A stretch of 64,000 nt of DNA, from positions 1,417 to 65,416 of IMG/VR virus record IMGVR_UViG_3300026035_000002; one strand, 5' to 3'. Origin of the DNA: a virus (Duplodnaviria; Caudoviricetes). The notes beneath the pieces were generated by a model. It saw nothing but the letters and a program-made list of their open reading frames with translations. It had not been told where the DNA came from and searched no databases. A program made the position numbers and the translations under genes. Numbering within the stretch: the stretch's first letter is position 1; each line of letters opens with the position of its first letter. This document shows, piece by piece, positions 5,349 through 51,948 of this stretch.

Positions 5349-6077
5349 ATGAAAAAGCTATTCAGTACTGCCCTCTTAGTTGCGTTCGCATTGCCCGTTT
5401 GTTTGTGGGCTCTCCAAGTCATCGGTTATCTGGACCTTCAGCTCATGGCTCCTCCGGGCAGCCCAGCCAGCGGATTTGTGCGGCTGTGGGCCGATAGCGG
5501 ATCGAGCACGGTCAACTGCAAAACCTCGTCCGGGACGACCTGTTATTTCGGCAACAACTCGATCACGGTAGCGGCCGGCACTGCGGCCCTCGGGACCAGC
5601 GCGATCGCGTCTGCCACTTGCGCCACTGTCGTCACCGTCAGCGCCAGTAACGTCGCCGTGGACATTGCCTATACGGATCTGGTGATCGGGTCAGGTTCCA
5701 ACACGAATCAGCTCACCAGCGCCGGGAATGCGTTCTCGTCAGGGCAACTCGGCAGCTCGCTCGTCATCTCGGGCGGAACGGGCTTCACCACTGGAACTTA
5801 CAGGATCATTTCGGTAAACGGTACGACGGCCATCATGGACCGGGCTGTAGGAACTGCGGCCTCGACCAGCGGAACGGGCACACTCGTCGGCGACAACGTA
5901 ATCACAGACTTCAACGTCGACCCCACTAGCACCACAGGATACTCTGCCAGTTCAAGCGGGATGCTGACGATCATCAAATATCCAACCGCAGGGAACGTCA
6001 ATTTCAAGGTCTGCAACAACACGAGCGGCAGCATCACGCCCGGGGCTGTGACGCTCAACTGGAGAGTGACGCGATGA
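5349..6077 (+). CDS. Signal-peptide protein, virion-decoration-like, with inserted 75-aa module
   Basis: MKKLFSTALLVAFALPVCLWA leader; two Cys pairs; module shared with the tail-tip protein. Confidence 0.75.
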   Translation: MKKLFSTALLVAFALPVCLWALQVIGYLDLQLMAPPGSPASGFVRLWADSGSSTVNCKTSSGTTCYFGNNSITVAAGTAALGTSAIASATCATVVTVSASNVAVDIAYTDLVIGSGSNTNQLTSAGNAFSSGQLGSSLVISGGTGFTTGTYRIISVNGTTAIMDRAVGTAASTSGTGTLVGDNVITDFNVDPTSTTGYSASSSGMLTIIKYPTAGNVNFKVCNNTSGSITPGAVTLNWRVTR

Positions 6078-7126
6078 AGCTTGCCTTATTACTGATCTTG
6101 TCCAGCCTCCTTCCTCTTTTTGGGCAGTGTTCACCGACCACGTCCGGGGGCAACACCATCGTGTTTTGCACGGGAACAGTAACCTCCTGGACGGTTCCCG
6201 GCGGAGTAACTTCGCTTTCGAAAGTAGAAGCGATCGGGGGCGGCGGAGGCGGCAATGCGCCTAATGCTCGTTTCGCCGGCGGTGGGGCCGGGGCATATGC
6301 GACTAAGAGTACTATCTCGGTAACGCCTGGCGCTTCTATGACCATCCAAGTCGGAGCAGGCGGCGCGGGTGGCGCATCGGCTGGCTCAAACGGAGCGGAC
6401 GGAACAGATACCACCTTCGATACGACTGTGGTGGTAGCCAAGGCGGGACTCGGTGGCCACGACAATAGCACCACGGGCGGAGCAGGCGGAGCGGCGGCAA
6501 GCTGCACGCCGAGTACGGGAGCATTTTCCGGTGGAGCTGGCGGCGATGATGGCAGTAATAGCCGCGCTGGCGCGGGCGGTGGCGGAGCGGCTGGGTCAGT
6601 GGGTGCTGGAAAAAAGGGCGGAGTCGGTGGCGCTACGAGTGCATTCAATGGCGCGGGCGGCGGCGGTGCGGATGGTGGAAGTTCAACAGTGGGCGGCGCG
6701 TCGAGCAGTTCCGATCCGTCTGGAGCAGGCGGCACTGCAACTGACGGAACAGCCGGAGGCGCCGGAGTAAATTCCACCAACACGGGAACTCCGAACCCCG
6801 GGAACAGTGGATCACACGGCTCCGGCGGCTCTGGCGGTGGAGGCGGAACGGGAGGCGGCGGCGCGCCAGGCGCAGGTGGCGCTGGCGGAAACGGTGTCGA
6901 ATATACCGCGAGTTATGGCTCTGGAGGCGGCGGGGGGGGGGGCGGCGGCGGATCTGCTGCGAACGGCGGTCTCGGCGGAAATGGCGGCACTTACGGAGCA
7001 GGCGGAGGTTCAGGCGGATACCCGAACGGACACGGGGGCAATGGGGCCGGCGGGCTGCTGGTCATCACATTTGTCACTCCAAGCAGCGTATCTTCCCAGG
7101 TTGGCGCGTTCTCAGTCGGACCGTAA
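6074..7126 (+). CDS. Signal-peptide glycine-rich protein
   Basis: MKLALLLILSSLLPLFG leader; WTVPGGV...VEAIGGGGGG...GGGAGAY and GGNGAGGLLVITF boundaries typical of phage Gly-rich domains; ATGA overlap with upstream gene. Confidence 0.8.
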   Translation: MKLALLLILSSLLPLFGQCSPTTSGGNTIVFCTGTVTSWTVPGGVTSLSKVEAIGGGGGGNAPNARFAGGGAGAYATKSTISVTPGASMTIQVGAGGAGGASAGSNGADGTDTTFDTTVVVAKAGLGGHDNSTTGGAGGAAASCTPSTGAFSGGAGGDDGSNSRAGAGGGGAAGSVGAGKKGGVGGATSAFNGAGGGGADGGSSTVGGASSSSDPSGAGGTATDGTAGGAGVNSTNTGTPNPGNSGSHGSGGSGGGGGTGGGGAPGAGGAGGNGVEYTASYGSGGGGGGGGGGSAANGGLGGNGGTYGAGGGSGGYPNGHGGNGAGGLLVITFVTPSSVSSQVGAFSVGP

Positions 7127-7136
7127 AACGAAACAA

Positions 7137-7838
7137 ATGCCACTCCCAACAGGCTCTCTACTTACCGATCTTCACTGGTGGTTTGATGCCAGAGATATTA
7201 CTCCCGTAGCTGACGGCACAACCGTAACAACTTGGGCCGACTCGACAGGCAACGGCCACACTGCGACCCGGAATTCCGGGATCTCGACCGGCAACGCGGT
7301 CTACTATAGCGGCCAGTACAATGGCAACCCGGCTCTGACGTTCACTAATGCCCGGTTCGATATCGCGAGTGTCGGCAGCATCCCTGCAACCGATGAACAC
7401 TCGTTTTTTGCCATATGCCGGCTGTCGAGCACATCAACCGACCAGAACATCATCGGGGACAGTGGGCTCAACTGGCGCTTTGGAGCAACTAACGGGTCAG
7501 TCCGGTACAACTCCGTGTTTAACGGAGGCTTTGGCCCGGGCTCCATTGGCACGGCCGCCATCGATACCACGTGGCATAAGCCGGCCCTGACCTATGATGG
7601 CGTTCACTCAGCAACGGGATTCTATCTCGAGGGTGTGAACGATCCGTCATCCGTAGCTACTGGGGCCCTGAATTATTCGCCGCCTGCATGGCTCTGCGGA
7701 ACGTCCATCGGTGAATTCTTCAACGGCCAGATTCTGCTGATCGGCTATTGGAACCGCATCCTCACCAGCACAGAGTTAAGCGACCTGGCGCCGATTGCAC
7801 CGCCGCATCCGACGCCCCGAATCTTCATCGTCACCTGA
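7137..7838 (+). CDS. LamG/concanavalin-A-like lectin-fold protein
   Basis: WWFDARDI..ADG..VTTWADSTGNGH start and FFNGQILLIGYWNRILTSTE end; ATG 7137 follows the stop of the previous gene. Confidence 0.75.
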   Translation: MPLPTGSLLTDLHWWFDARDITPVADGTTVTTWADSTGNGHTATRNSGISTGNAVYYSGQYNGNPALTFTNARFDIASVGSIPATDEHSFFAICRLSSTSTDQNIIGDSGLNWRFGATNGSVRYNSVFNGGFGPGSIGTAAIDTTWHKPALTYDGVHSATGFYLEGVNDPSSVATGALNYSPPAWLCGTSIGEFFNGQILLIGYWNRILTSTELSDLAPIAPPHPTPRIFIVT

Positions 7839-7894
7839 AACAACGCCATATTTTCCGCAGTTTTTCGTCGTTACCTTAAACCCCGGATTTCTAT

Positions 7895-8449
7895 ATGCTC
7901 ACTCGATACCGCATTGTCGCGGCGGCGCTCTCCCTTTGCGCCTGCCTATGCCTCCCGGCTTCCTCGCAGACGCCACCAACCACCACCGCCTCACAGCTCG
8001 CGAATCTGCAGCTTCCGTCCTATATCGCCGTTGGCGGGGCATATAACCAGTTCGTCGGAGCCAACCTCTGGGGATCGGCCATAATCCCGATTGCATCGAG
8101 CATCGGACTCTACGAATCGACCACGGCGGACATCTTCCCCGTGAAAGCCACAATCAACGGCAAGGCGGGATACATCTTCACCACCAGCCTCCGGCAGGGC
8201 TTCCACAAAGTCATCTACCAGGACCCCAAGAATATGGGGCTGTTCGGGGCTGATGCGGGAGTCGTGCTGCCGAGCGGCGGAACTCCGGGCTTCAGTGTCT
8301 CAGCTGCGGTGACTGCAACCTATGTACGGCACCTTAACGCATCGCTTGCGCTCATGATTCCGGCAAGGGTCGTCTACATTCCAAGCCTCGGCGGCTGGAA
8401 CCCGATCCTCGAGCTGGGAATCGTCTGGAAGCCGGGCGGGGGGAAGTAG
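7895..8449 (+). CDS. Exported protein, possible small outer-membrane beta-barrel
   Basis: Signal peptide; alternating hydrophobic strands (YIAVGGAY, ATYVRHL, ILELGIVW near the C-terminus). Confidence 0.5.
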   Translation: MLTRYRIVAAALSLCACLCLPASSQTPPTTTASQLANLQLPSYIAVGGAYNQFVGANLWGSAIIPIASSIGLYESTTADIFPVKATINGKAGYIFTTSLRQGFHKVIYQDPKNMGLFGADAGVVLPSGGTPGFSVSAAVTATYVRHLNASLALMIPARVVYIPSLGGWNPILELGIVWKPGGGK

Positions 8450-8454
8450 GAATT

Positions 8455-8706
8455 ATGTTCAGAGACCCTAAGACAACCTTCGGCGGCATCGTATGCATCC
8501 TGGCCGTAATCGGCTTGCTGTTCCATAAGATCGACCTCAGTGCCTGTGTAACTATTCTCGGCATCGCTGGGGGCGTGATTGGGTTTGCAAGTAAGGACAG
8601 CGGCGCTGCCCCCACCTATTCCACAACGGTTAAAACCGAATCACTCAGCAACGGCGGAGCGACTGCGGAAGCCGTTCAAACCTCCATAGAAACGAAGACA
8701 ACATGA
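8455..8706 (+). CDS. Putative holin
   Basis: Two hydrophobic helices, charged C-terminal tail, upstream of endolysin. Confidence 0.65.
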   Translation: MFRDPKTTFGGIVCILAVIGLLFHKIDLSACVTILGIAGGVIGFASKDSGAAPTYSTTVKTESLSNGGATAEAVQTSIETKTT

Positions 8707-8984
8707 CCTTTACCCTCACCCCCGCAGAATTCCAGAAACTTGACGCTCAACTCATCTCGTCCCACCAGGTCCTCATCCACGAGAACGCGGAATCCGACTC
8801 CGTCACAACCGGCTCGATCTCCACCATCGACGGTAAGGTGGCGGCCGACTTCACTTTCACGGGTTCAAAAAACTCCCTTGAAGTGAACCTCACCAAGCAC
8901 GACGGGTACCCGGGCTTCATCGCCAACGCCGGTCTCAAGTCGAAGCTGAACGACGCGCTGCGGGCGATTCGCAGCGGGCGGTAA
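8703..8984 (+). CDS. Hypothetical protein in lysis cassette
   Basis: ATGA-coupled between holin and endolysin. Confidence 0.65.
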   Translation: MTFTLTPAEFQKLDAQLISSHQVLIHENAESDSVTTGSISTIDGKVAADFTFTGSKNSLEVNLTKHDGYPGFIANAGLKSKLNDALRAIRSGR

Positions 8985-8991
8985 CTCTTCC

Positions 8992-9426
8992 ATGATTTAT
9001 TCCATTTCCGAAGCCGGGCTTGGGCTTATCAAGCGCTTTGAAGGACTGCGCCTGGCCGCCTACCAGGACCAGGTCGGAGTCTGGACAATCGGTTACGGCT
9101 CGACCCTCGGAGTCCGTCCGGGTATGGTCATCACTCAAGAGCAGGCGGATGCCCGGCTGCAGCTCGATGTCCAGACGGCCGTCTCTTGCGTAAACCGAAA
9201 AGTTGGACCTGCCCTGACGCAGAATCAGTTTGATGCCCTGGTGAGTTTCGTATTCAATCTGGGATGCGGCGCTTTCTCGGGATCGACGCTCTTGCGCCTA
9301 TTGAATGCCGGCGAGACGGCCGCGGCGGCTCAACAGTTCGTTCGCTGGGACCAGGCCGGGGGACACGTCCTCGAAGGCCTGCTCCGTCGCCGTGAAGCAG
9401 AGCGCGACCTATTTCTGAAACTTTAG
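8992..9426 (+). CDS. Endolysin, GH24 (T4-like) lysozyme
   Basis: IKRFEGLRLAAYQDQVGVWTIGYGST (E/D/T triad), QNQFDALVSFVFNLG, GLLRRREAE. Confidence 0.95.
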   Translation: MIYSISEAGLGLIKRFEGLRLAAYQDQVGVWTIGYGSTLGVRPGMVITQEQADARLQLDVQTAVSCVNRKVGPALTQNQFDALVSFVFNLGCGAFSGSTLLRLLNAGETAAAAQQFVRWDQAGGHVLEGLLRRREAERDLFLKL

Positions 9427-9456
9427 TTGCGCTTCTGATTTAGAGGGTGGTATGGT
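9427..9456 (+). promoter_or_regulatory. Sigma70-like promoter firing toward the leftward operon
   Basis: TTGCGC-N18-TATGGT with TG extended -10. Confidence 0.45.
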
Positions 9457-31131: not shown

Positions 31132-31737
31132 ATGAACCGGCAATTTAAAAAGGGCGCTCTGCTACGGTGGGGCGCCCTTGCCCTTTTAATGTCGATCGCC
31201 ATTGCGCAGACGCCTACCACCCGAAAGCCCTATATCTACTGGTGGGCTCCCGGCGATGCGCTATATGACTGGAAGCCGCTCATAGTCGAACCGCCCCTCA
31301 AAGTGACAGTGGACGCAGCAGGCCAGTTTCACCTCTCCATTCCGGCGTCCGCCACCCAGGGAGGCTTCGCCGGGGCCGTTACAAAGACTTCCAGCTACGC
31401 CGTGACGGCCGCTGACTGCGGCAAGTGGCTAGTGTTCGACGGCGACAAGCTAACCGCTACCCTGCCTCCCACACCACCACCGAGCACGTGCGACTGGACA
31501 TTCCTCAACGTCAGCTCCAACGCAACCCCGCTCACCATCACCGGCGCCGGCAACCCGATCAATCACGCCGGCAATATTGTTCTGCAGCTCGGACAATCCG
31601 CAAAGATTGGAACCGACGGCATCACGAACTATTGGGCGCTCTCTGTGCCAGTTGATTGCGGATGGGGAATGATGTGCAAGTTTTACGGAAACCACTCTAC
31701 CGTGGAAATTGGACCGGTGATGACGCCCGCCAATTGA
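31132..31737 (+). CDS. Signal-peptide protein with tail-fibre-type domain
   Basis: MNRQFKKGALLRWGALALLMSIAIA; TKTSSYAVTAADCGK...TATLP...DGITNYW; two Cys pairs. Confidence 0.7.
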   Translation: MNRQFKKGALLRWGALALLMSIAIAQTPTTRKPYIYWWAPGDALYDWKPLIVEPPLKVTVDAAGQFHLSIPASATQGGFAGAVTKTSSYAVTAADCGKWLVFDGDKLTATLPPTPPPSTCDWTFLNVSSNATPLTITGAGNPINHAGNIVLQLGQSAKIGTDGITNYWALSVPVDCGWGMMCKFYGNHSTVEIGPVMTPAN

Positions 31738-31743: not shown

Positions 31744-33543
31744 ATGCCGAGAGTGCGGCCCGAGAACCGGAAGCGACCGTATAAACCCCGCAAACCCCGC
31801 CCGGATTGGCAGAAGCCCCATAACTGCTGCGCTTCAGATGTCGACATACATCCACAATTGGCGCGCTACACCCGCGAATGGCTAGAAATGAAGAGTATCT
31901 CGAGGATGATGTACGGCCCCGGCCCTCTCCGCATTCCTGATGTGTGGTTTGAACTTGCCGAAACCGCTACCAGGGTAGGCTATGTGCCTCAACGACTTGG
32001 GTGCGCTCCCAAAAACAGACACAGAAAGAGGTTGGACGCGGAAAAAGCACGGCAAGATCTTGCTTGGAGGCTTGCGGCTCCGGTAGGCGATATCGATTTC
32101 CCGCAAAAACAAATAAATCCCCGGCTGAACACGATTAGTATGGTGTGACCGAAGATCGCGCTCCCTCAACCTCCTCCGAAACCTCCGAAACCCCGTTTCA
32201 GTCCACCCGCGAACCCGCCTCTCGGCCCGCCAGTAAACCCAAGCCCCCCCTGATCACCCAGGAGGAATACGAGGCAAAACGCGCCGCTCGTAACATCCAG
32301 AGCGTCATCGACAAAGAGCAAGCCCGCCTCACGCCACGCGCCCGCCGCGCCATGCTGCTGGCGCTCCACAAGGCTACAGGAGCCGATGTGGAAGCAATGC
32401 GCCAGTCGGAGTTGGAAGCGGCACAGATCAAAGCGCAAGCCACACTGAGGCTTGCCCGAGAGATGGAGAAGGTCTTCCCCAAACATCCGCCCGGCGTCCT
32501 CTCCTCACACGCCACGGTCAACGCGGAGACTCCTTCCGAGTAGCCTATGGCCGACAAAGTGACCCCCATCAAATCGAAGATCCCGGCACCCGCCGAACGC
32601 CGCAAGTTAGTGGACGAGTACGCCATGCTCCACCACCAGCTGGGCCCTATGCGGAAACGCCACGACGATTTACGAGAGCAAATCGACTCCTGGAACCCGG
32701 CGCTCGAAAAATCAGCCGACGCCACTGTTCGCGAGGAAGGCGACAAGTACGTCGTCGACATCGGCGAATGCACGAACGAGACGAAAGTCACCGGCATCGA
32801 CAAGCTTTTCAAGCTGCTGACGCTGAAACCGTTTCTTCGCTTCGTCGAAGCCTGCAGGCCGACACAGAAAGCGCTCGACTCATCGCTACCGGATAAGTCT
32901 CAGCGTGGACTGTTCCTGGTTACCACTCAGACTGGCAGCCGCCGCGTCAGCATCACCAAGAAATTCAGCGAGGCAGCGTGAGAGGCATTCCCTTCGCGGC
33001 GGTCTTCGTAGCGATGGTTGTCGTCGCAATCGTTGCACTCATCTGCCAACTGGACAGTCTTCCAGCGAGCGCAAACCAGATACTTGCTGCGGACGGCATG
33101 ACCAACATAAAACTGACCGGATGGCAGTGGTTCGCATGCGGCGCAGACGATTCCGTAAATACCGGATTTGAAGGTCTGAAGAACGGCCACTATGTGAAGG
33201 GCGTCGTCTGCGGAGCCTGGAACAAAGGCTACACCGTGAGGTATCTGCCCTGACTCGCGCCTCCATCGAAGTCATCACCGAACTCACTCCCAACGGCGCA
33301 CCGATCCTCCGCGCTTGCTGCGGGCAGAACTGCGGCAACTTCGTCGAAATGGGCACATCCCCCGGCGAAGAACTAGGCTCGGCGGTTCTTGTGTTCCTCG
33401 AAAAGACACGGCTCGAAGGCTGGGCTATCGGACTGATGGGCAACTTCTGCCCGGCTCATGTACGCCAGCTCCGCGAGCAGCAATCCCGGCTTGTCCTGCC
33501 AGACGGGGGAACGATCCTCACACCTGGAGGCATGACCCAGTGA
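31744..33543 (+). other. ORFs 31744-32148, 32145-32543, 32547-32981, 32978-33253 (exported phage protein, GWQWFACG.DD..NTGF...GVVC), 33250-33543 (probable CTG start)
   Basis: Coupled co-oriented ORFs. Confidence 0.6.
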
Positions 33544-37418: not shown

Positions 37419-38180
37419 ATGACCGGCTCTCTCAACAGCTACGCCAAGCACCGCAAGGCTGCAAACCTCGCGGGTGGCAGCCTGCAGGCCGTCCAGAAGG
37501 CGATAGCCTCCGGCCGTATCTCAGTGAAGCGCGAAGGCGAGAGCTACCTCGTGGACTTCGAAGCTGCAGACGCCGAGTGGGCAGCGAATACGCACCCGAC
37601 GCAGGGGCGCGAAGAGAAACAGCCTCCCAAGCCCGAATCGCAGAAGTCTGACGCTAAGCCGGAACCCAAAGCGGATCCGGCCGCGCCGGCAGCAGGTTTT
37701 AACAAAGCTCGTACGGCGAAGATGGCCTACCAGGCCGCGGCCGAGGAGCTGAAGTACAAGCAGCGCCTGGCAAACGCGGCACGCTCGGAAGAGCAGCTGC
37801 GCGACTCGACGGAACGAGTCGAAGAGCAGGAAGAGTTTGACCTGGTGGCGATTCTCCAGGGGCATTTGCGCCGGCTGAAAGTAATCAGCGTGCTGGCTGA
37901 AATGGAAGGCGACTATTCGACCGCCGTCAAAGCCATCGCCGAATCGACACAGACCGCACTCAATACATGGGATCTTCTCGCGCCGAAGCGCTCCGAAGCC
38001 GAGGGGCAAGAGGGCAAGCCGTCCGGCGGATCGTCGAGCAGGGATATCGAGATTCCCAAGCCGGATTCACCGGATTCAAGCAGTACAAGCCTCTCCCCAG
38101 CCAGTACCGATTCCACCTTTCCCGTGCCCGCTTCAAAGGGTTCAGTGGGCCCATCGGCTCCGGGAAGTCGCTCGCATTAA
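37419..38180 (+). CDS. Putative terminase small subunit
   Basis: N-terminal YAKHR...SLQAVQKAI.SGRI HTH-like; position before terL. Confidence 0.6.
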   Translation: MTGSLNSYAKHRKAANLAGGSLQAVQKAIASGRISVKREGESYLVDFEAADAEWAANTHPTQGREEKQPPKPESQKSDAKPEPKADPAAPAAGFNKARTAKMAYQAAAEELKYKQRLANAARSEEQLRDSTERVEEQEEFDLVAILQGHLRRLKVISVLAEMEGDYSTAVKAIAESTQTALNTWDLLAPKRSEAEGQEGKPSGGSSSRDIEIPKPDSPDSSSTSLSPASTDSTFPVPASKGSVGPSAPGSRSH

Positions 38181-41392: not shown

Positions 41393-41803
41393 ATGACCGA
41401 CACTCACGAAAACCTCGACCACGACCTGGACCGCTTGAGCGATGACGGTGCGCCGCATCCCGAACCGCCGGTATGGTGCGCCACCTGCGACCATCCCGCA
41501 GAGACGCATGACGGCGGCGGATATTGCGGCGTTCAATTTGACTCTTCCAGCAACATGGAGGGCTTCTGCGGCTGCGATCGATTCGTGCAAGGTGAACAAC
41601 AGCCTCCGCCGTTGACTCCCGAAATGCTTGCAGCGCACCACAGCGCTATCGACGCTGCGCTGGCAGGCTTGGGCGGGATTGCCTTGCTGCCTGCGACGCG
41701 AGAGGCATGGGCCGAAAAGATCGACCGCGAACTCGACAACGAGTATCTCCCCTACGGTCTGAAGGAACTGCAGCCCGAATCTCCCGAATCTCCGACTAAA
41801 TGA
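41393..41803 (+). CDS. Hypothetical Zn-binding protein
   Basis: CATCDHP..TH...C...CGCDRF. Confidence 0.6.
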   Translation: MTDTHENLDHDLDRLSDDGAPHPEPPVWCATCDHPAETHDGGGYCGVQFDSSSNMEGFCGCDRFVQGEQQPPPLTPEMLAAHHSAIDAALAGLGGIALLPATREAWAEKIDRELDNEYLPYGLKELQPESPESPTK

Positions 41804-44495: not shown

Positions 44496-45218
44496 ATGCC
44501 AGAACCAGTAGTAAACCCGGCGCCGGAGCCGAAAACAGATCCGGGATTCGATCCAACGGCCTTCGCCGCGACCCTGATGGAGCAGTTCAAAACCGAACTG
44601 AATAAAGGGCTCAATGCGATGGACAAAAAGATCAACAAGCTGTCCGAACCGAAGCCTGACTCAAAACCGGAGCCGAAACCGCAGGACCCCGCAGTAGACC
44701 CGACGAATCCGAACGATCTCAAGCCCGACCCCAAGACGCTGCCCGAACTCAATGCGCGCATTCAGAAACTGACTCTTCAACTCGAAGCCATCAGCCAGGA
44801 AAACGCGACATCGAAGAAAGCGGCCGAAGAGTCGAAAGCGAAGCAGCTCGAAACGGAACGGGTAGCAGCATTTGATGCAGCCATAGCGGATATCCCTTTC
44901 GCGGATGCCAAGGCTCGCGCAACCTTCCGAAAAGCCTACCTCGCCGATGTAGTCCGCGACGAGGACGGCAATCTGGTGGCGCAAACGGACAAAGGGCCGA
45001 TGGCTTACGCCGAGTACCTCAAGGCGGAAGCGCAATCGCAACCCTCGCTCTTGCTCAAAGAAGGGCATTCGGGAGCGGGCGCAAGCGGAGGCAAAAAAGC
45101 CTTCGGTTCTTCAAAAATCGACATCTTCTCGATGTCGCAGAAGGAAATCGCAGCGCTTCCCACAGAAGTCCGCGACCAACTTCTCGCGGAAGCAGCCTCA
45201 GCGCTGATGCCGCGTTAA
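44496..45218 (+). CDS. Capsid scaffolding protein
   Basis: AAGGAG RBS; Pro-rich N-terminus, coiled coil, GAGASGG tail; directly before MCP. Confidence 0.75.
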   Translation: MPEPVVNPAPEPKTDPGFDPTAFAATLMEQFKTELNKGLNAMDKKINKLSEPKPDSKPEPKPQDPAVDPTNPNDLKPDPKTLPELNARIQKLTLQLEAISQENATSKKAAEESKAKQLETERVAAFDAAIADIPFADAKARATFRKAYLADVVRDEDGNLVAQTDKGPMAYAEYLKAEAQSQPSLLLKEGHSGAGASGGKKAFGSSKIDIFSMSQKEIAALPTEVRDQLLAEAASALMPR

Positions 45219-45247: not shown

Positions 45248-46171
45248 ATGGCAACGTTCACCTCTCAAAATGCAGCCCAGGCGATCGTAAAGCTCGTCGC
45301 CCCGATGGCGCTCGAAGCCCTGGTCGGAAACCTCGTCATGGGGAATCTGGTCAACCGCGATTTCGAGCCCACTCTGCAATCCGCCGGCGACCAGATCAAT
45401 ATCCCGATCCCACCGGTAATGACCTCCAACAACATCGCGGAAGGCGGCAGCGTAAACGCACAGGCCCCCTCCCTCGGAAACGCTCAGATCACTCTGAACT
45501 ACCACCAGGAATCGACTTTCATCCTGCCCGACGTGACCCGCGCGATCGCCGTTCCGGATCTCATCAAAACCCTGATGAACCCGGCCATCATCGCCATCGT
45601 CGAGAAAATCGAGACCGACTTGCTCTCGCTTTATCCCAATTTCACCGTGAACAGCGCAACCGGCGGAGCGTCCACCATGGACGAAGCCCGCATCGACTCC
45701 GCTGAAAACACTCTCTTCGGCCAGAAGGTTCCCAAGGCCCAGCCGAAATTCCTCATCCTGTCCGGTACGGCTTATAGTCAGACCCGGCAGCTCGGCGTGT
45801 TCCGCGACTGGAACAACCTCGGACCCTCCGGCCAGCCGTCCCCGATCGTCAGCGCAGTGCTCCCCGGCGGCGCCGCGGAAGGCAAGATCAAGGACTTCTT
45901 CGTCTATCGCTCTCAGTTCGTGCAGAAGCCCAGCTCCACCACCTACAACCTGGCCTTTGCCAAGGATGGTATCGGCCTGGTCGTCCGGCGCATGCCGCTC
46001 CCGATCCCCGGTACCGGCGTGATCGGCGAATACGCGGAAATGGGCAACTTCGGCGTTCGCGTGCTGATGTCCTATGCCCCGAACACTCTCGCCCAACAGT
46101 TCACCGTGGACGTGCTCTACGGATGCGGCGTGCTTCGCAACAACTTCGGCCTCCAGGTTCAGAGCAACTAG
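45248..46171 (+). CDS. Major capsid protein, P22 coat family
   Basis: AAGGAG RBS; LVMGNLVNRDFE....AGDQINIPIP, LAFAKDGIGLV.R, DVLYGCG.LR. Confidence 0.88.
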   Translation: MATFTSQNAAQAIVKLVAPMALEALVGNLVMGNLVNRDFEPTLQSAGDQINIPIPPVMTSNNIAEGGSVNAQAPSLGNAQITLNYHQESTFILPDVTRAIAVPDLIKTLMNPAIIAIVEKIETDLLSLYPNFTVNSATGGASTMDEARIDSAENTLFGQKVPKAQPKFLILSGTAYSQTRQLGVFRDWNNLGPSGQPSPIVSAVLPGGAAEGKIKDFFVYRSQFVQKPSSTTYNLAFAKDGIGLVVRRMPLPIPGTGVIGEYAEMGNFGVRVLMSYAPNTLAQQFTVDVLYGCGVLRNNFGLQVQSN

Positions 46172-47218: not shown

Positions 47219-47250
47219 GGGCGGCTCGTTTCAGGGCCGCCCGACTTCTC
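47219..47250 (+). terminator. GC hairpin, weak terminator candidate
   Basis: GGGCGGCTC-GTTTCA-GGGCCGCCC followed by a pyrimidine-rich tract. Confidence 0.4.
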
Positions 47251-47264
47251 TTAGCTGACATCAA

Positions 47265-48224
47265 ATGCTCTTCACTGACGGCAACTTCATCACGACCGCG
47301 CTGCTCGACCAGATCGACGGCGAGTTCTCCGCAGTTGCAGCGGCAGAGGGCATGGATACCTCTGCCTTCATCACAGAGGCAGTGAACGCGGCAGGCTCCG
47401 AGTTTATCGCAAAAATTCAATCCTTCTCAGGCTACTTGTGCGGAGTTGGGGCGAATGCCAACCACCAGGCCGCCGTGCTCAACGTTCTCACCACCGCCAT
47501 TCAGCGGCCACGAGCGATCCTGAACCAGATCCCGGCAACCGAGCCCAATCCGACGCGCACGGCATTTCGTCGCTGGATCCAGTTCTTCTGCCTGTACGAG
47601 TTCTACCTGGCGGTCAGCAACCGCAAGATCAAGGACCGGTACGACCAGAAGGCCACGAAGTACGAAAAGCAGAAAAAGCGCTATTGGGAGAACTTGAAGG
47701 GCTGCGGCTTCCCCGTCGTGCTCAATCCGCTTCCTTGCCCCGGCGCCACCCTCGAATACAACTCCGGCAGCTGGTCGAATGCCAACGTTACGGCGGTTTC
47801 GGGCGGCGCATCAGTTGCCCAAGTGACTTATGACGTTACGGTGACGTGGTGCAGCCTTCCTACTTATGTTTCGGCCACAAACCAGAACAACGGGGAAAGT
47901 GCCGGCGCGGCAACCCAAACGATCGCAGTTCCGGCAGCCAACGTTATCGCGGTCAGCATCGTGGGCCTCAACCCCCCGACAGGCACTGCACCACTGGCAA
48001 TCGGTAGCGCACAAGGGGCTTATTCCCCACTCGCCGCAACGCACTGGAACGTCTATGCCGGCCCAACCGGCGGAACGATGACGCTGCAGAACAGTTCGCC
48101 CATTCCAGTAGCCACGACTTCTTACACTTTTGCGGCAGCGCCGACGACCAGCGGTGTTCCGATTAACGCGGGACAGGCTGCGATTTACGACTTCTCGTTT
48201 CTCAACATGCTCTGGCGGGCATAA
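47265..48224 (+). CDS. Putative head-tail adaptor with C-terminal beta domain
   Basis: Helical N-half ending KDRYDQK..KYE, then Thr/Ala-rich beta domain; position. Confidence 0.5.
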   Translation: MLFTDGNFITTALLDQIDGEFSAVAAAEGMDTSAFITEAVNAAGSEFIAKIQSFSGYLCGVGANANHQAAVLNVLTTAIQRPRAILNQIPATEPNPTRTAFRRWIQFFCLYEFYLAVSNRKIKDRYDQKATKYEKQKKRYWENLKGCGFPVVLNPLPCPGATLEYNSGSWSNANVTAVSGGASVAQVTYDVTVTWCSLPTYVSATNQNNGESAGAATQTIAVPAANVIAVSIVGLNPPTGTAPLAIGSAQGAYSPLAATHWNVYAGPTGGTMTLQNSSPIPVATTSYTFAAAPTTSGVPINAGQAAIYDFSFLNMLWRA

Positions 48225-48234
48225 GGACACTTCC

Positions 48235-50220
48235 ATGAAATCTCTCGTTGCTGTACTCTCGCTCCTTCTGCTCGTGCCGCTGTCGTGCGCGCAGGAGACG
48301 GTAGACCATTCGACCGCGCTCAAGGTAATCCCCTGGACGATGCGGTACGACTTCCCCGGCAAGTGCTCTCCCAGCCAACGGATGACGCTGATCTCCGGAA
48401 CCTGGGGCAGTAACGATTACGTCTGCGGCTTGACGAATAACTGGGTAGCCACAGCCAGTAGCGGGGGTGCTTCGCCAGCGGGAAATGACGGAGATGTGCA
48501 GGTAAAGGCAGGGACGGCGCTCGGCGCGGCTCCGATGAATTGCGCCGGAGGCAACTGCACGATAGGGACTAGAGTGCTTGCGCAGGGGTCGGACGGCTAC
48601 GTCGATCCACTATTGGCAGTCAAGGCCCCGAACCAGAACGTTATCTATGCTTCCACGAGTTGCGGCGGAGCCACAAACTGCGTGACGGTTAAGGCGGATA
48701 CCAAGTGGGTATCTGATGCGACCTCGACCAATACATCGCAGACCGTAACCTGCCCCAATAACGACTGCAATTTTGTGGCTGGGGACGTTGGCAAGGTGGT
48801 ATTTGGAACAGCTGACGTTCTCGCGGGTGCAGTGCATGTCCCGATCGGAACGATTAGCGCGGTCAATGGAGCGCAATCCATTACCGTCTCCGTGGCAGCT
48901 ACCGCAAGCCACACAGCCAATCTTGTCTTGGTGTGGGGATCTGACGATACTGCCGCTCTCGACACCCTTTCGACCACTGTTGGCACAGCCTGTGCGATGG
49001 GAATCTTCCCGGCAGGCTACATGATCACCAAGCACGGACAGTTCAAAAGCCAGTCAGGATGCAAGGGGGCAGGATTGTCCGTCTATGCAGGTCCGGCGTG
49101 GAGAGGGCAAGGGATCAACGCTTCGTGGATCATCCCAACTCCAGACTTTGATTTCACCACATGCACGGGGGGCGTCAGCACAACGGCGTGCTTCTTTGGT
49201 ACGAATGCTGGCGAACTCTCCAGCTTTACGATATGGGGCGGCGGTGCGCTGCTCGGTGGCACTCAGGCCAAGAACCTTGTGGAGATAGGGAACGCATGCC
49301 GCGTAACCTTAGTTGATTTTGAGGGCTTTGCGGCCAACACATCCAGTCTTGTAGGTCTAAGCTGGCATAGCTCTTCCGGGGTCATGTACAGCGGTGGCGT
49401 GATCCAGTTTGGGTCCACGCAGTTTAAGGCGGAAGCCAACCAAACCATATCCATTGGAAATTATTACTACGGCACTTTCGGACCCGCTCTGCAAGTTGGA
49501 CAAGGAGGAATCGGGACGCTGATGTCGATAGCGGATTACTTTCAAGGTTGCTCCGCAAGTAGTTACACCACTGCCGTCACGACAGAGGCGCAGTTCCATA
49601 ATGTCTTCATCGCCCCCAATTCTGGCTGCACTGCGATAAACACAACGGGTGGAGTGGTCACACTTTCAGACAATTCTCGAATAAATGTCCTGAACGCCAG
49701 TGGGGTTACCGGAATCGTGGCACTCAGCGGAGCAAAGGTGTACATGCAGAATTCCACGATCACCGGGGGATCGGGAGCATCGCCTTTAAACACGAACTCG
49801 ACGGGAAATCTGTATGACCAAGGCGGGATGACCTTTGTGGCGACATCCGGGGCCATCGGCGCAAATGTCGTGGGTCCGGTGTTTGGATCAGCCTCAATTA
49901 CTGGAACGGCTTTCACCACCACCGGGTTCGCGCTAACATCCGGCTGGGATACCAGCACCAAGACCTCTGCATCGGGCAATGCCCAGAAACTCACTTATTT
50001 GATCACTCTTGCCGGAACGCCCACGACAGGCGCAGTGGCTACCGTCACGTTCCCAAACACGTTCCTGGTTGCTCCGATCTGCACGCATAGCGAGGGTGGA
50101 ACGCAACTCCTTACGAACGTCACGCTTGGCACCCCGTCAACCACATCGGTGACGGTGACATACACCGGGACGCTGACTGCCGCGAACACGATCCAGCAGG
50201 TTTTAAGCTGTTCGAACTAG
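48235..50220 (+). CDS. Signal-peptide, Cys-rich beta-helix (pectin-lyase-like) protein
   Basis: AAGGA RBS; MKSLVAVLSLLLLVPLSCA; GSDDTAAL...IFPAGY beta-helix cap; about 17 Cys after the leader. Confidence 0.75.
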   Translation: MKSLVAVLSLLLLVPLSCAQETVDHSTALKVIPWTMRYDFPGKCSPSQRMTLISGTWGSNDYVCGLTNNWVATASSGGASPAGNDGDVQVKAGTALGAAPMNCAGGNCTIGTRVLAQGSDGYVDPLLAVKAPNQNVIYASTSCGGATNCVTVKADTKWVSDATSTNTSQTVTCPNNDCNFVAGDVGKVVFGTADVLAGAVHVPIGTISAVNGAQSITVSVAATASHTANLVLVWGSDDTAALDTLSTTVGTACAMGIFPAGYMITKHGQFKSQSGCKGAGLSVYAGPAWRGQGINASWIIPTPDFDFTTCTGGVSTTACFFGTNAGELSSFTIWGGGALLGGTQAKNLVEIGNACRVTLVDFEGFAANTSSLVGLSWHSSSGVMYSGGVIQFGSTQFKAEANQTISIGNYYYGTFGPALQVGQGGIGTLMSIADYFQGCSASSYTTAVTTEAQFHNVFIAPNSGCTAINTTGGVVTLSDNSRINVLNASGVTGIVALSGAKVYMQNSTITGGSGASPLNTNSTGNLYDQGGMTFVATSGAIGANVVGPVFGSASITGTAFTTTGFALTSGWDTSTKTSASGNAQKLTYLITLAGTPTTGAVATVTFPNTFLVAPICTHSEGGTQLLTNVTLGTPSTTSVTVTYTGTLTAANTIQQVLSCSN

Positions 50221-50268
50221 GCACTCATTTCGAGGGGATCTGTTCTTAGTACTATTGCCTGACTCACA

Positions 50269-51099
50269 GTGTCCACAGTCAAAGAAATCATCCTCGCGCA
50301 CGACGGCTACGTCACCGCCACAGTCAACGCGTACACGCACCGGCTCCAGGACATTGTAGGAATAGCCACCGCCCGCACGGTCTCTGAACTCCATCGGAAG
50401 CTCACGATCCTGCCGGATGGAACGATAGCCAACACGCCGGGAAACACGCGAGTACTGAAGGGAATAGCAGCAATCTTCCAGGATGAGATGGATGCTGCCG
50501 GGTTCCAGGGGCTGAACAAAGCGTACGCCGGCCAGTTTAGCGGCCAGCTCCCGTTTCTCGACCAGCTCGTCGACAAAGTCGGAGAGTCGCTCAGCCATAC
50601 GTTCCCCGACGTGAAGGACGCGCTCGACGCGCAGGACCGGAAAGCTCTGGCAGCGCTGCAGTCGTCGACGGTCGCCAATCTGGAGACTGTAGTCGATACG
50701 GCAGCAGCGGCGGCGACCCGGCAAGCGCTCTTCAATGTGGCCGGATTGTCAGCCTCGGACCTGGCCGCTACGCTGGCAAAGGCCTTCGGGGCTACGGTAC
50801 CGCACGCGGAAGCGATCGCGGACACGGCTCAAGTGGCCTGGTACCGGACAGCCTCCGATCGAACTTACCGGGCGATTGAGTCTGATTTACCGGGCTTCAA
50901 GATCGAGTACGAATATGATGGACCGCTCGATAGTTTGAACCGCAGGGTTTGCAAGCTCTGGAGACAGCAGTCGATCGCCGGGAAGCGCTGGACGCGGGAA
51001 GACATCGACAAGCTCGACAACGGAGCGGGGCAGCCCAAACCGGTCATGATCTTCTGCGGGGGCATACGCTGCCGACATCAGTGGATAGTCAGCGTCTAA
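50269..51099 (+). CDS. Minor head protein, SPP1 gp7/Mu gpF-like
   Basis: ADTAQVAWYR, YEYDGPLDSLNRRVC, FCGGIRCRHQW. Confidence 0.75.
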   Translation: MSTVKEIILAHDGYVTATVNAYTHRLQDIVGIATARTVSELHRKLTILPDGTIANTPGNTRVLKGIAAIFQDEMDAAGFQGLNKAYAGQFSGQLPFLDQLVDKVGESLSHTFPDVKDALDAQDRKALAALQSSTVANLETVVDTAAAAATRQALFNVAGLSASDLAATLAKAFGATVPHAEAIADTAQVAWYRTASDRTYRAIESDLPGFKIEYEYDGPLDSLNRRVCKLWRQQSIAGKRWTREDIDKLDNGAGQPKPVMIFCGGIRCRHQWIVSV

Positions 51100-51115
51100 A
51101 TGGGATCATGGCGGC

Positions 51116-51589
51116 ATGAAAGCCTTTTTGCTCCTGCTGGCGTCTGTTGCGATCGCAAGCGCTCATTCAGTTGACCTGGCCTGGACCTGGTCGCAAGGTG
51201 ACGGAGTGGCTGCCACGGGCTTTCATGTGGAGCGGTCCCTGGTTTCAGGCGGACCCTATGCCGTGATTGCCACGGTGTCAGATCCGGCGGTAATGGCCTA
51301 TTCTGACGCCACCGTGCTCTCGGGCCTGACGTATTACTACGTGGTGACGGCGTTTAACGATGATGGGGATTCGGCGCCCACGAACGAAGCGGCGGCTATC
51401 ATTCCCGGCTCATCGGTAGTGCTGACGAGCAGTGTTGACGCCGTCTATCCGCAGCCGATTCTGTACGGCGGCTATCCGGTTTTCGGGCTGGGATCCTATC
51501 TGCCCATGATTGTAAACGGCGCTTATCCCGTGAGTGAGGCATCCGGAGTTTATCGAGCTATGACGTCCATCCTGGTGGTAACGCAGTGA
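51116..51589 (+). CDS. Signal-peptide fibronectin type III protein
   Basis: MKAFLLLLASVAIASA; VDLAW...GFHVERS..SGGPY...YSD......TYYYVVTAFN..GDSAPTNE. Confidence 0.85.
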   Translation: MKAFLLLLASVAIASAHSVDLAWTWSQGDGVAATGFHVERSLVSGGPYAVIATVSDPAVMAYSDATVLSGLTYYYVVTAFNDDGDSAPTNEAAAIIPGSSVVLTSSVDAVYPQPILYGGYPVFGLGSYLPMIVNGAYPVSEASGVYRAMTSILVVTQ

Positions 51590-51948
51590 AGAAAGCCATC
51601 CTCGCAGCCCTTTTGTTCTGTGTTTCGGCAACTGGCGCGAACATCCTGACAATCACCAAGACTCCGTACGAGCAGGTGAACTGTTCGGTGGATTTCGGGG
51701 CGGTAGTCGGCTCGGGAGCTATCGTGCTCGACTCGGTTGTGACCACCCTCCAGAACGGGGCGGTTACCAAGGGGATTGTTGCGACGACACCGGCTCCAGC
51801 GATCACCGCCAGCACTTCGACTGTGGTCCTGCAGCTCGTTGGCGGTGTGGCGCGCACCACGTATCTAGTTTCGGTCCGGGTATCGAATTCAGTGACCGGC
51901 GAGAAGTGGGACGGCGTTATCACGCTGAACGTTACGGCCGGTCCCTGA
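51586..51948 (+). CDS. Signal-peptide protein resembling phage fibre-tail adaptor domains
   Basis: MKKAILAALLFCVSATGA; KTPYEQVNCSVDF...GGVARTTYLVSVRV. Confidence 0.6.
   Translation: MKKAILAALLFCVSATGANILTITKTPYEQVNCSVDFGAVVGSGAIVLDSVVTTLQNGAVTKGIVATTPAPAITASTSTVVLQLVGGVARTTYLVSVRVSNSVTGEKWDGVITLNVTAGP

What the first reader, a model, noticed from the sequence alone, without database searches (positions are those of the whole stretch)
5349..51948. Set of Sec-exported, disulfide-type 'virion decoration' proteins mostly inside the morphogenesis modules
Seen: at least seven genes (5349, 6074, 7895, 31132, 48235, 51116, 51586) begin with classic signal peptides. Most carry domains normally found on virions: Gly-rich, beta-helix, FN3, fibre-adaptor and tail-fibre repeats. 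One shares a module with the tail-tip protein. Several have closely spaced Cys pairs (about 17 Cys in 48235), whereas the unsecreted fibre portion of the tail-tip protein is Cys-poor. Established: tailed-phage virions assemble in the reducing cytoplasm, and their structural proteins normally lack signal peptides. Inference: the phage routes a set of adhesin-like parts to the periplasm for oxidative folding. They may then be added to virions at lysis, or they may build a phage-encoded surface coat or appendage. Either would be an unusual assembly pathway.
Basis: partly seen in the sequence, partly recalled or inferred. Interest (0 to 1): 0.85.

Follow-up and report, generated by a model that had tools for sequence, protein, structure and literature searches.

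The report
Exported fibre-like accessory proteins of a phage
A complete soil-phage genome (host: Acidobacteriota) carries seven optional genes built from tail-fibre and tailspike parts, each starting with a conserved bacterial export signal; this suggests they work outside the cytoplasm where the virus particle is built, a class of phage protein I did not find described in my searches.

Summary
All seven genes start with Sec-type leaders. Nine of 88 N-termini pass my leader rule, against 0.7% of internal positions (P about 1e-8). The leaders are kept in homologues while their sequences drift.

- 48235 is a tailspike-like beta-helix with conserved cysteine pairs.
- 5349 ends in a lectin-like tailspike C-terminal domain with two invariant cysteines. 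This domain occurs in about 70 phage and prophage loci, nearly always behind a leader. A second exported gene usually follows it, as 6074 (Gly_rich_2) does here.
- 7895 looks like an outer-membrane protein and sits beside the lysis genes.

The genes are not core virion parts. Six to seven related phages keep the same head-neck backbone with no gene in the slot where 48235 sits, and only the closest relative keeps 51116 and 51586. The phage also has its own leaderless 2300-aa tail-tip fibre. One bacterial genome carries the 5349-type module with no phage genes seen nearby.

I therefore support export and oxidative folding, by inference only. I do not support "virion decoration added at lysis", though I cannot exclude it (about 0.3). 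My preferred reading (about 0.45) is accessory exported proteins that act on the host's surface polysaccharide or receptor layer.

This scan has noted the same phenomenon in over 100 other genomes. No experiment exists.

The parts
5349..6077 (+). Exported protein, 242 aa. Leader, short N-part with a Cys pair (C57, C65), then a lectin-like C-terminal domain (residues 71-99 plus 181-242; invariant C91 and C222). That domain is split by a roughly 80-aa insert (residues 108-182).
   Evidence: Leader. Family of about 70 loci, nearly all with leaders. Alignment A2. AF2 gives pLDDT above 90 in the domain. Fold matches to tailspike C-terminal domains and H-type lectins, Z 5.6-7.4.
869..1090 (+). Module inside the leaderless tail-tip protein (residues 814-887 of 2300), homologous to the insert in 5349.
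   Evidence: BLASTP: 54% identity over 76 aa, E 5e-10.
6074..7126 (+). Exported Gly-rich protein, 350 aa. Its start overlaps the stop of 5349. It is the partner gene of the two-gene module, but lacks the PGPG motif that most partners carry just behind the leader.
   Evidence: PF21722 Gly_rich_2, 44.3 bits. Partners in other loci: 43 of 66 have the PGPG-like motif; 5 of 10 tested have Gly_rich_2.
7137..7838 (+). Context only.
   Evidence: Translation. No Pfam or NCBIfam match.
7895..8449 (+). Exported 184-aa protein next to the lysis genes. Candidate outer-membrane beta-barrel protein.
   Evidence: Leader. ESM Atlas feature score 0.97 to Acidobacteriota clusters auto-named 'outer membrane protein beta-barrel'. 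A 94% homologue with its leader lies beside the 8703 homologue in L168. PF13505 did not match.
8455..9426 (+). Lysis cassette: two-TM holin candidate (8455), 8703, and endolysin (8992). Context only.
   Evidence: PF00959, E 1e-48, and phrog_7 for 8992. TM segments in 8455.
31132..31737 (+). Exported 201-aa protein outside the morphogenesis modules. Leader, a roughly 50-aa N-domain, then a roughly 95-aa domain that recurs in tail-fibre proteins.
   Evidence: Relatives that match its N-domain mostly show a leader by my rule, and the few that fail look N-terminally truncated. The C-domain lies in proteins that match tail-fibre PHROGs.
47265..48224 (+). Conserved core gene of unknown role that precedes the insertion slot. 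Context only.
   Evidence: Homologues beside the capsid gene in 113 loci. No family or PDB match.
48235..50220 (+). Exported tailspike-like protein, 661 aa. Leader, conserved N-domain (Q20-W70, with C44 and C64), Gly/Ser linker, beta-helix body, C-terminal sandwich domain. 17 Cys in the mature protein.
   Evidence: Ten of 11 homologues carry leaders, and all sit in phage late operons. AF2 pLDDT 62. Foldseek to tailspikes and depolymerases, E 1e-7, TM 0.2-0.3. N-domain shared with the slot proteins of L240 and L127. Conserved Cys pairs.
50269..51099 (+). Conserved core gene that follows the slot. Context only.
   Evidence: Directly abuts the 47265 homologue in L087, L051, L115, L116 and L125. 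In L085 and L241 only a short ORF separates them.
51116..51589 (+). Exported 157-aa protein with an FN3/PKD-like domain. No Cys.
   Evidence: Leader. PKD_4, E 0.002, below cut-off. A 60% homologue (P0015) and the L241 homologue keep a leader of different sequence.
51586..51948 (+). Exported 120-aa Ig-like protein with a weak Gp77-like match. Its start overlaps the stop of 51116.
   Evidence: PF23148, 22.6 bits, below cut-off. A 76% homologue (P0017) has a diverged but intact leader at the same place in L241.

Best explanation
These are accessory genes of a temperate-type siphophage of Terriglobia (Acidobacteriota). They are not parts needed to build the particle. Each encodes a pre-protein with a Sec leader, cut by signal peptidase I, mostly before a Gln. 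The mature proteins fold in the periplasm, where conserved cysteine pairs can form disulfides.

They are assembled from the same pool of modules as tail fibres and tailspikes: a beta-helix, a lectin-like C-terminal sandwich, a Gly-rich adhesin domain, and Ig/FN3 domains.

My preferred mechanism is that they act on the envelope of the producing cell. 48235 would bind or cut the surface polysaccharide that the virion also recognises. 5349 and 6074 would form a lectin-type pair. 7895 would enter the outer membrane. The receptor layer of the infected or lysogenic cell and its debris would then be stripped or masked. That would block superinfection and stop progeny from sticking to debris.

Shown:
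- The leaders are real and conserved.
- The folds and domains are as stated.
- The genes are insertions into fixed slots.
- They can be absent from relatives.
- The module occurs outside a phage.

Inferred:
- Export and leader cleavage.
- Disulfide formation.
- Co-expression with the late genes.
- The target and the benefit.
For: - Leaders: 9 of 88 N-termini pass against 0.7% background.
- Leaders are conserved across families. 10 of 11 homologues of 48235 have one. At least 49 of 57 carriers of the 5349-type domain have one, and most of the rest are cut off or missed by my rule. Leader sequences drift while the mature parts stay 60-76% identical.
- Conserved Cys pairs.
- Tailspike or depolymerase fold for 48235, and tailspike C-terminal or H-type lectin fold for the 5349 domain.
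- Accessory status. The 47265 and 50269 homologues abut in L087, L051, L115, L116 and L125, and are separated only by a short ORF in L085 and L241. The slot is filled in the window, L240 and L127. L085 instead has a different 669-aa leader protein between the tail tube and chaperone genes.
- The phage has its own leaderless 2300-aa tail tip.
- 7895 resembles outer-membrane proteins.
- In genome G003, a 5349-type gene and its exported partner lie between TsaD and HipA_2/DUF3037/CysS, with no phage gene found within about 15 kb.
- 3-5 of 68 family leaders are lipoprotein-type.
- Published parallels: exported tailspike-like WceF (PMC7949094, title and abstract only), surface MAT fibres (PMC10769870), and Q-rule leader proteins of Porphyromonas phages read as envelope modifiers (PMC10367356).
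Against: - No experiment, no RNA data and no trained signal-peptide predictor.
- The genes are packed tightly into the late operon, with no excess of promoter-like or terminator-like sites. This is unlike classic self-transcribed morons.
- 48235 has a conserved N-domain with a swapped body, which is the layout of virion-anchored receptor-binding proteins.
- Family members reach 2000 aa and come with a tip-adhesin partner. That seems elaborate for a masking or degrading role.
- A periplasmic protein cannot reach an outer-surface receptor unless it acts on the polysaccharide in transit or after lysis.
- No catalytic residues were identified.
Confidence: 0.45

Rival explanations
1. One reading: these are exported virion appendages. 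The proteins fold and form disulfides in the periplasm, then dock onto particles built in the cytoplasm when holin and endolysin merge the two compartments. They would serve as optional neck or tail spikes and fibres.
For: - 48235 has the anchor-linker-variable-body layout. The same roughly 50-aa N-domain (with invariant C44 and C64) heads three different bodies in the same slot of three phages.
- It has a tailspike fold.
- The genes are embedded in the late operon with gaps of 10-17 nt or overlapping stop and start codons, and no sign of separate transcription signals.
- The arrangement of fibre then tip-adhesin gene, with overlapping stop and start, recalls T2/S16 gp37-gp38 (own knowledge).
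- 5349 shares a module with the tail tip.
- In prophage G004, a leader-bearing giant of about 2480 aa is the last gene of the tail block.
- The C-terminal domain of 31132 occurs in fibre proteins both with and without leaders.
Against: - The genes are dispensable: close relatives with the same backbone lack them.
- This phage already has a leaderless 2300-aa tail-tip fibre.
- No docking site or partner was identified.
- The module stands alone in G003 without a phage.
- Some family members have lipoprotein leaders.
- 7895 looks like a membrane protein.
- My literature searches found no tailed phage with this route.
- No cultured relative exists for proteomics.
Confidence: 0.3
2. Lysogenic-conversion cargo. 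The genes are expressed from the prophage for the host's benefit, as surface adhesin fibres or outer-membrane proteins. Known examples are lambda Lom and Bor, the prophage-borne Eib adhesins (own knowledge), and Bdellovibrio MAT fibres.
For: - Presence or absence between conserved genes is the moron pattern.
- Relatives of the capsid gene sit in Terriglobia chromosomes as prophages.
- 7895 is outer-membrane-like and follows the tail genes, as lom does in lambda (own knowledge).
- A stand-alone chromosomal copy of the module exists in G003.
- MAT fibres likewise have a leader, a conserved N-domain and a variable tip, and sit on the cell surface.
- GC3 of 48235 and 51116 is slightly below that of the core genes.
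Against: - No promoter or terminator signals around the genes beyond chance, though Acidobacteriota promoters may differ from the consensus used.
- Gaps of 10-17 nt and overlapping stop and start codons suggest co-translation with the late genes.
- No outer-membrane translocator was seen in the cassettes.
- No expression data.
Confidence: 0.17
3. The leaders are not export signals. They would be chance hydrophobic N-termini, wrong start codons, or uncleaved tethers on the cytoplasmic face of the membrane.
For: No trained predictor or experiment was available. One homologue of 48235 (P0010) lacks a leader.
Against: - Enrichment with P of about 1e-8.
- Leaders are retained in distant homologues despite sequence drift.
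- Small-x-small sites are followed by Gln in 40 of 68 family members and 37 of 66 partners.
- Cysteine pairs are invariant.
Confidence: 0.03

Closest known systems
Phage tailspikes and capsule or O-antigen depolymerases (phi297 gp61, AP22 gp54, LKA1 gp49, Kp32gp38, HK620 and Sf6 tailspikes)
   Same: 48235 models as a right-handed beta-helix that matches these chains (Foldseek E 1e-7 to 1e-4). The C-terminal domain of 5349 matches their C-terminal sandwich domains (Z 5.6-7.4).
   Different: The known spikes have no leader and fold in the cytoplasm onto the particle. TM-scores here are low (0.2-0.3). No catalytic residues or particle-binding domain were identified. There is no sequence match to any GenBank phage.
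Pantoea stewartii WceF, an exported bacterial enzyme with a tailspike-like fold that trims exopolysaccharide (PMC7949094, title and abstract only)
   Same: A tailspike-type fold in a protein that acts on the cell's own polysaccharide rather than on a virion. This is the working model I prefer for 48235.
   Different: WceF is a chromosomal gene of an EPS cluster, not a phage gene. Homology was not tested. I did not read its export route in the paper.
Bdellovibrio bacteriovorus MAT fibres (PMC10769870)
   Same: Signal peptide, then a conserved N-terminal domain, then a trimeric phage-like fibre with swappable adhesive tips. The proteins are located on the cell surface.
   Different: MATs are cellular genes with an N-domain of about 130 aa. 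Here the genes are phage-borne and the N-domain of 48235 is about 50 aa. No sequence relation was tested.
Phage morons and exclusion proteins that enter the envelope: lambda Lom and Bor, T5 Llp, phi80/N15 Cor, prophage-borne Eib adhesins (own knowledge)
   Same: Leader-bearing accessory genes placed beside tail or lysis genes. They are present or absent among relatives and act on the host envelope or receptor.
   Different: Those are small lipoproteins or barrels, or autotransporters. They are not built from tailspike or fibre modules. Classic morons have their own promoter and terminator, and none were seen here.
Leader-bearing 'Q-rule' proteins of Porphyromonas gingivalis phages (PMC10367356) and the Bacteroidetes Q-rule (PMC5837995)
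   Same: Phage proteins of unknown function with SPase I leaders that expose an N-terminal Gln. The authors read them as potential modifiers of the outer membrane. Here 4 of 7 leaders, and over half of those in the related families, end before Gln.
   Different: Different host phylum: the Q-rule paper does not mention Acidobacteria. That work makes no link to tail-fibre or tailspike modules.
T2/S16-type long tail fibre with a separate Gly-rich tip adhesin (gp37-gp38; own knowledge)
   Same: A fibre gene followed directly by a Gly-rich adhesin gene. The conserved fibre C-terminus could be the docking site for the partner.
   Different: gp37 and gp38 have no leaders. No homology was tested. 6074 lacks the PGPG motif that most partners carry.

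Membership tests
Sec / signal peptidase I signal peptide | Positively charged n-region followed by an uncharged hydrophobic h-region of about 7-15 residues near the N-terminus | tested here: met
   All seven pass my hydropathy and charge rule. Background pass rate is 0.7%.
Sec / signal peptidase I signal peptide | Small residues at -3 and -1 before the cleavage site | tested here: met
   Read by eye. Clear cases: IAIA|Q (31132), LSCA|Q (48235), ASS|Q (7895) and ASA|H (51116). Poorer fits: SATG|A (51586), LFG|Q (6074, Leu at -3) and LWA|L (5349, Leu at -3). No weight matrix or SignalP was run.
Sec / signal peptidase I signal peptide | Export and cleavage shown experimentally | not testable with these tools
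   No cultured relative and no RNA or proteome data.
Phage tailspike / depolymerase (right-handed beta-helix) | Beta-helix fold matching solved tailspikes | tested here: met
   For 48235: Foldseek E 1.4e-7 to phi297 gp61, followed by many other tailspikes. TM is only 0.2-0.3 and mean pLDDT is 62.
Phage tailspike / depolymerase (right-handed beta-helix) | N-terminal particle-binding domain, and presence in the virion | not testable with these tools
   The N-domain (residues 20-70) is conserved in the slot proteins of three phages. It has no recognisable relative. No complex prediction or proteomics was possible.
Gly_rich_2 (PF21722) | Score above Pfam's gathering threshold | tested here: met
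   6074 scores 44.3 bits against a cut-off of 24.3.
Gp77 fibre-tail adaptor (PF23148) | Score above Pfam's gathering threshold | tested here: not met
   51586 scores 22.6 bits against a cut-off of 27. Its 76% homologue carries a 'weak' precomputed hit.
PKD / FN3 domain | Score above Pfam's gathering threshold | tested here: not met
   51116 scores 18.4 bits for PKD_4 (cut-off 27) and 16.7 bits for PKD (cut-off 23.5).
Moron (accessory gene inserted in a late operon) | Present between genes that are adjacent in related phages | tested here: met
   47265, 50269 and 52426 homologues abut in L087, L051, L115, L116 and L125. The slots are filled in the window, L240, L127 and L241.
Moron (accessory gene inserted in a late operon) | Own promoter and terminator, and expression from the prophage | tested here: inconclusive
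   Consensus scans found no more sites than shuffled sequence and none flanking the genes. The scan uses the sigma-70 consensus only. Expression could not be tested.
Outer-membrane beta-barrel protein (OMP_b-brl, PF13505) | Match to the family model | tested here: inconclusive
   No match in the genome at E up to 10 and no Pfam hit. ESM Atlas features score 0.97 to clusters auto-named OMP beta-barrel. The C-terminus does not end in an aromatic residue.
Bdellovibrio MAT fibre family | Conserved beta-rich domain of about 130 aa right after the signal peptide | not tested
   I held no MAT sequences. The N-domain of 48235 is about 50 aa.
C-terminal sorting domains (such as the T9SS CTD) | Match to an NCBIfam or Pfam sorting-domain model | tested here: inconclusive
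   5349 gave no hit in NCBIfam at E up to 0.1 or in Pfam at E up to 10. The fold matches tailspike C-terminal domains and H-type lectins instead.

The most novel reading that the evidence does not exclude
Some tailed phages of soil bacteria mature optional spikes and fibres in the periplasm. These parts are exported by Sec, trimmed, and disulfide-bonded. The phages attach them to cytoplasm-built particles only when lysis merges the two compartments. This would be a two-compartment assembly route for tailed virions. Here it would apply to the 48235 slot protein, docking through its conserved N-domain, and to the 5349-6074 fibre-adhesin pair.
Probability: 0.28. Interest if true: 0.9.

Novelty: new variant of a known kind. 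Interest (0 to 1): 0.62.

Why it matters
Textbook tailed-phage assembly takes place wholly in the cytoplasm. Known exported phage proteins are lysis factors, small exclusion lipoproteins or morons.

Here, a recurrent and conserved class of exported proteins is built from the virion's own host-recognition modules. It spans a phage-specific tailspike-like family, and a two-gene fibre-plus-adhesin module seen in about 70 loci.

Whichever reading is right, something is missing from the current picture. One possibility is a widespread way for phages to remodel or mask the host's surface polysaccharide from within. The other is a second compartment in virion assembly.

The finding also gives practical handles:
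- the invariant Cys pair;
- the PGPG motif behind the partner's leader;
- the fixed insertion slot after 47265.

Finally, it suggests that leaders exposing an N-terminal Gln are common outside Bacteroidetes.

Tried and rejected
- **RNA evidence:** no RNA holder was listed for the stretch. The contigs laid from two rhizosphere runs only showed that a relative about 91% identical covers 51152-51881. Parts without cover are not used as evidence.
- **Family searches with nothing usable:** Pfam at E up to 10 and NCBIfam at E up to 0.1 gave nothing for 5349, 7895 or 31132. For 48235 they gave only a chance-level DUF4772 hit (E 0.01, below cut-off). PHROGs had no family for 5349, 7895, 31132 or 51586.
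- **PDB sequence-profile searches:** the 5349 domain family, 47265 and 50269 found nothing.
- **Outer-membrane test for 7895:** PF13505 did not match in the genome.
- **ESM Atlas on the N-domain of 48235:** scores of 0.83 or lower, so uninformative.
- **Shared docking motif idea:** I looked for a motif of the kind P..P.SG....W.D behind the leaders of the 5349 family. It occurred in only 1 of 68 members, so I dropped the idea.
- **BLAST of 6074 against partner proteins:** no hit, because of composition correction. The relationship rests on Pfam Gly_rich_2 instead.
- **GenBank phage collection:** no match for 5349, 48235 or 6074. No cultured relative or virion proteome could be used.
- **Genome-contig scan with 48235:** found no relative.
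- **u-spanin reading of 7895:** considered and rejected, because there is no C-terminal transmembrane segment.
- **Sorting-tag reading of the 5349 C-terminal domain (T9SS-like):** considered. There was no model match, and the fold points to tailspike or lectin domains.
- **Literature searches:** none found a paper describing leader-bearing tail fibres of tailed phages.

Full report
**What the window is.** The contig is 65,416 bases with a 127-base direct terminal repeat. It is therefore a complete circular-map genome of 65,289 bp, and the window covers all but 1,416 bases of it. There are no tRNAs and GC is about 60%.

The layout is that of a siphophage:
- large terminase at 37967, portal at 39768, and a TPR/methyltransferase fusion at 41800;
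- a scaffold-like gene at 44496 and the major capsid protein at 45248;
- a neck or tail-completion gene at 52426 and a tail-tube candidate at 53894;
- the tape measure at 57376 and a distal-tail candidate at 62203;
- a 2300-aa tail-tip protein that starts at 63719 and runs across the genome ends to 5332;
- then a holin candidate at 8455, gene 8703, and the endolysin at 8992.

Capsid relatives at 59-64% identity lie in chromosomes of Bryobacteraceae, Solibacteraceae and other Terriglobia. The host is therefore an acidobacterium, and the sample is a rhizosphere metagenome.

**The observation.** All seven ORFs are there, and all begin with a basic n-region, an uncharged hydrophobic core and a small-x-small site. 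Four of them are followed by Gln. With a fixed rule, 9 of 88 N-termini pass: the seven, the holin, and the small membrane protein 32978. Only 0.7% of internal positions pass, giving P of about 1.5e-8. I had no trained signal-peptide predictor, so "cleavable" rests on inspection and on conservation.

**48235.** The large protein search found 11 relatives at 25-39% identity. Ten of them start with a leader, mostly ending before Gln. Those with context all lie in phage late operons. These operons are of different kinds: some follow a terminase, and one closes a tail block next to a VanY-type endolysin.

The AF2 model is mediocre (mean pLDDT 62, with residues 135-400 good). It still matches tailspikes and capsule depolymerases first and almost exclusively (phi297 gp61, E 1.4e-7; TM only 0.2-0.3). 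Cys173/178, 310/319 and 616/659, plus Cys253, are conserved in the family.

The first ~50 mature residues (Q20-W70, with invariant C44 and C64) recur at 77% identity in P0005, and more weakly in the L127 protein. All three occupy the same slot, directly after the 47265 homologue, but carry different bodies. The leaders themselves have diverged.

**5349 and 6074.** The conserved part of 5349 is a C-terminal domain made of residues 71-99 and 181-242. It is interrupted by an insert of about 80 aa that is 54% identical to residues 814-887 of the tail-tip protein.

The domain was found in 57 IMG/VR loci and 14 genome loci, mostly Terriglobia. It lies at the very end of proteins of 200 to over 2000 aa. 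At least 49 of 57 have a leader by my rule, and most of the others are cut by a contig end or were missed by the rule. C91 and C222 are present in 67 of 67 aligned members.

The domain models with pLDDT above 90. Its best structural matches are the C-terminal domains of tailspikes (Kp32gp38 Z 7.4, phi297 gp61 6.5, LKA1 gp49, Pam1, AP22 gp54) and H-type lectins (discoidin I, Helix pomatia agglutinin). These Z values are middling, but the theme is consistent.

In most loci the next gene overlaps the stop codon and again encodes a leader protein. Forty-three of 66 distinct partners carry a PGPG-like motif a few residues behind the leader, against about 1.5% of other ORFs. The partner bodies vary: Gly_rich_2 in 5 of 10 tested, Laminin_G_3 in one, CHB_HEX_C in one. 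6074 is such a Gly_rich_2 partner but lacks the PGPG motif. The tail-distal pair of the window therefore belongs to a widespread two-gene exported module.

**The other four.**
- 7895 has a 94% homologue, with its leader, next to the 8703 homologue in another phage. Its language-model features resemble acidobacterial clusters auto-named as outer-membrane beta-barrel proteins (0.97). Pfam does not confirm this.
- 51116 and 51586 are small FN3/Ig-like proteins whose Pfam matches fall below threshold. Their few homologues keep a leader of different sequence.
- 31132 lies outside the morphogenesis modules. Relatives matching its N-domain mostly show a leader, and the few that fail my rule look truncated. 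Its C-domain recurs, often in several copies, in proteins that match tail-fibre PHROGs. Of the 123 related proteins, 51 have a leader by my rule.

**Are they virion parts?** The strongest new evidence is comparative.

Relatives with the same backbone order (capsid, 46232, 46799, 47265, 50269, 52426, 52989, 53567, 53894) differ in whether the slots are filled:
- In L087, L051, L115, L116 and L125 the 47265, 50269 and 52426 homologues directly abut.
- In L085 and L241 no 48235-type gene is present.
- L241, the closest relative (capsid 89% identical), keeps the 51116 and 51586 homologues.
- L240 and L127 fill the 48235 slot.
- L085 has instead a different 669-aa leader protein between the tail tube and chaperone genes.

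So the head-neck genes are insertions that particle assembly does not need. The phage also has a leaderless 2300-aa tail tip.

Two bacterial genomes add to this. In G004, a leader-bearing giant of the 5349 family is the last late gene of a prophage and lies next to host genes. In G003 (a Terracidiphilus MAG), a 1309-aa family member and its 737-aa exported partner lie between TsaD and HipA_2/DUF3037/CysS, and no phage gene was recognised within about 15 kb. Three to five of 68 family leaders look like lipoprotein leaders.

Some evidence points the other way. The genes are packed into the late operon with gaps of 10-17 nt or overlapping stop and start codons. No promoter-like or terminator-like site flanks them beyond chance. 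Only GC3 is slightly lower: 0.63-0.65 against 0.70-0.80 in the core genes. 48235 has the anchor-linker-variable-body layout of virion receptor-binding proteins.

**Reading.** I consider export and oxidative folding well supported by inference. For function, I prefer accessory envelope-acting proteins that bind or cut the surface polysaccharide or receptor layer of the producing cell (0.45). Optional virion appendages added at lysis remain a serious rival (0.30). Lysogen-expressed surface or outer-membrane cargo is a third possibility (0.17), and non-functional leaders are unlikely (0.03).

Published parallels exist for each element, but not for the combination:
- an exported tailspike-like enzyme, WceF (PMC7949094, title and abstract only);
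- the leader-bearing MAT fibres of Bdellovibrio (PMC10769870);
- Q-rule leader proteins of Porphyromonas phages (PMC10367356).

**Relation to earlier notes of this scan.** A word search returned 125 notes in at least 123 genomes on leader-bearing fibre proteins of phages. Several had been followed up. A later check of one of them put the bold "periplasmic maturation" reading at about 9 in 100. One follow-up on other DNA describes what appears to be the same C-terminal-domain module, though it shares only three short words with 5349. I used these notes only as leads. The slot comparison, the partner motif and the stand-alone island were worked out here.

**Limits.** There is no experiment, no RNA data, and no cultured relative. 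The ORF calls in the fetched loci are my own crude ones. The leader rule is a heuristic. The 48235 model is of modest quality. The absence of phage genes around the G003 module rests on about 20 ORFs tested by Pfam or BLAST.

Noticed in passing
window 45248-46171; loci L004-L163: The capsid protein has relatives at a very uniform 58-64% identity in at least 189 stretches of Terriglobia species genomes. Many IMG/VR proviruses holding it are only 15-17 kb long and carry terminase, portal, capsid, and 47265-like, 62203-like and tail-tip-like genes. 62203 has a weak DUF2460 match. This looks like a conserved small head-tail element, possibly like a gene transfer agent, in Acidobacteriota.
   Followed up: partly
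window 7137-7838: A leaderless 233-aa gene lies between 6074 and 7895, overlapped by a longer out-of-frame ORF call. Its N-terminus resembles LamG-type jelly-roll proteins by eye, but no family matched.
   Followed up: partly
loci L169-L239, the gene after each 5349-type gene: A PGPG-like motif (for example PWPGPG, PFPGPG or GMGPGPG) sits a few residues behind the leader in 43 of 66 partner proteins. These partners otherwise have unrelated bodies. It could be a docking peptide for the conserved C-terminal domain of the upstream protein, or a processing signal.
   Followed up: partly
leaders in the window and in loci L001-L003 and L169-L239: More than half of the leaders end in small-x-small followed by Gln (4 of 7 here, 40 of 68, and 37 of 66). 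This is the pattern published as a Bacteroidetes-specific 'Q-rule', but here it appears in phages of Acidobacteriota.
   Followed up: partly
G003:C5 about 62900-70800 (loci L244, L245): A 1309-aa leader protein of the 5349 family and its 737-aa exported partner stand between TsaD and a HipA_2/DUF3037 pair and CysS in a Terracidiphilus MAG. No phage genes were recognised nearby.
   Followed up: partly
L085 12771-14780: The closest syntenic IMG/VR relative has its own unrelated 669-aa leader protein, inserted between the tail-tube and tail-chaperone genes. This is a different slot from those used in the window.
   Followed up: no
L240 3889-4533: In a close relative, the slot after 47265 holds a leaderless GDSL/SGNH esterase in addition to a leader-bearing spike-like protein. 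The slot therefore collects polysaccharide-acting genes both with and without leaders.
   Followed up: no
window 47219-47242: The only strong terminator-like hairpin of the late region (9-bp stem, 8 of them G-C) lies between 46799 and 47265, after the capsid block.
   Followed up: no
window 50269-51099: The conserved C-terminal motif (RPFCR ... NCRH.W, with invariant C228, C268 and H270 in the alignment) recalls SPP1 gp7 / Mu F minor head proteins. This is from my own knowledge; Pfam gave no match.
   Followed up: partly
window 32978-33253: A small 91-aa protein with an N-terminal membrane anchor or leader and three Cys lies in the middle region. It is a further candidate envelope protein.
   Followed up: no
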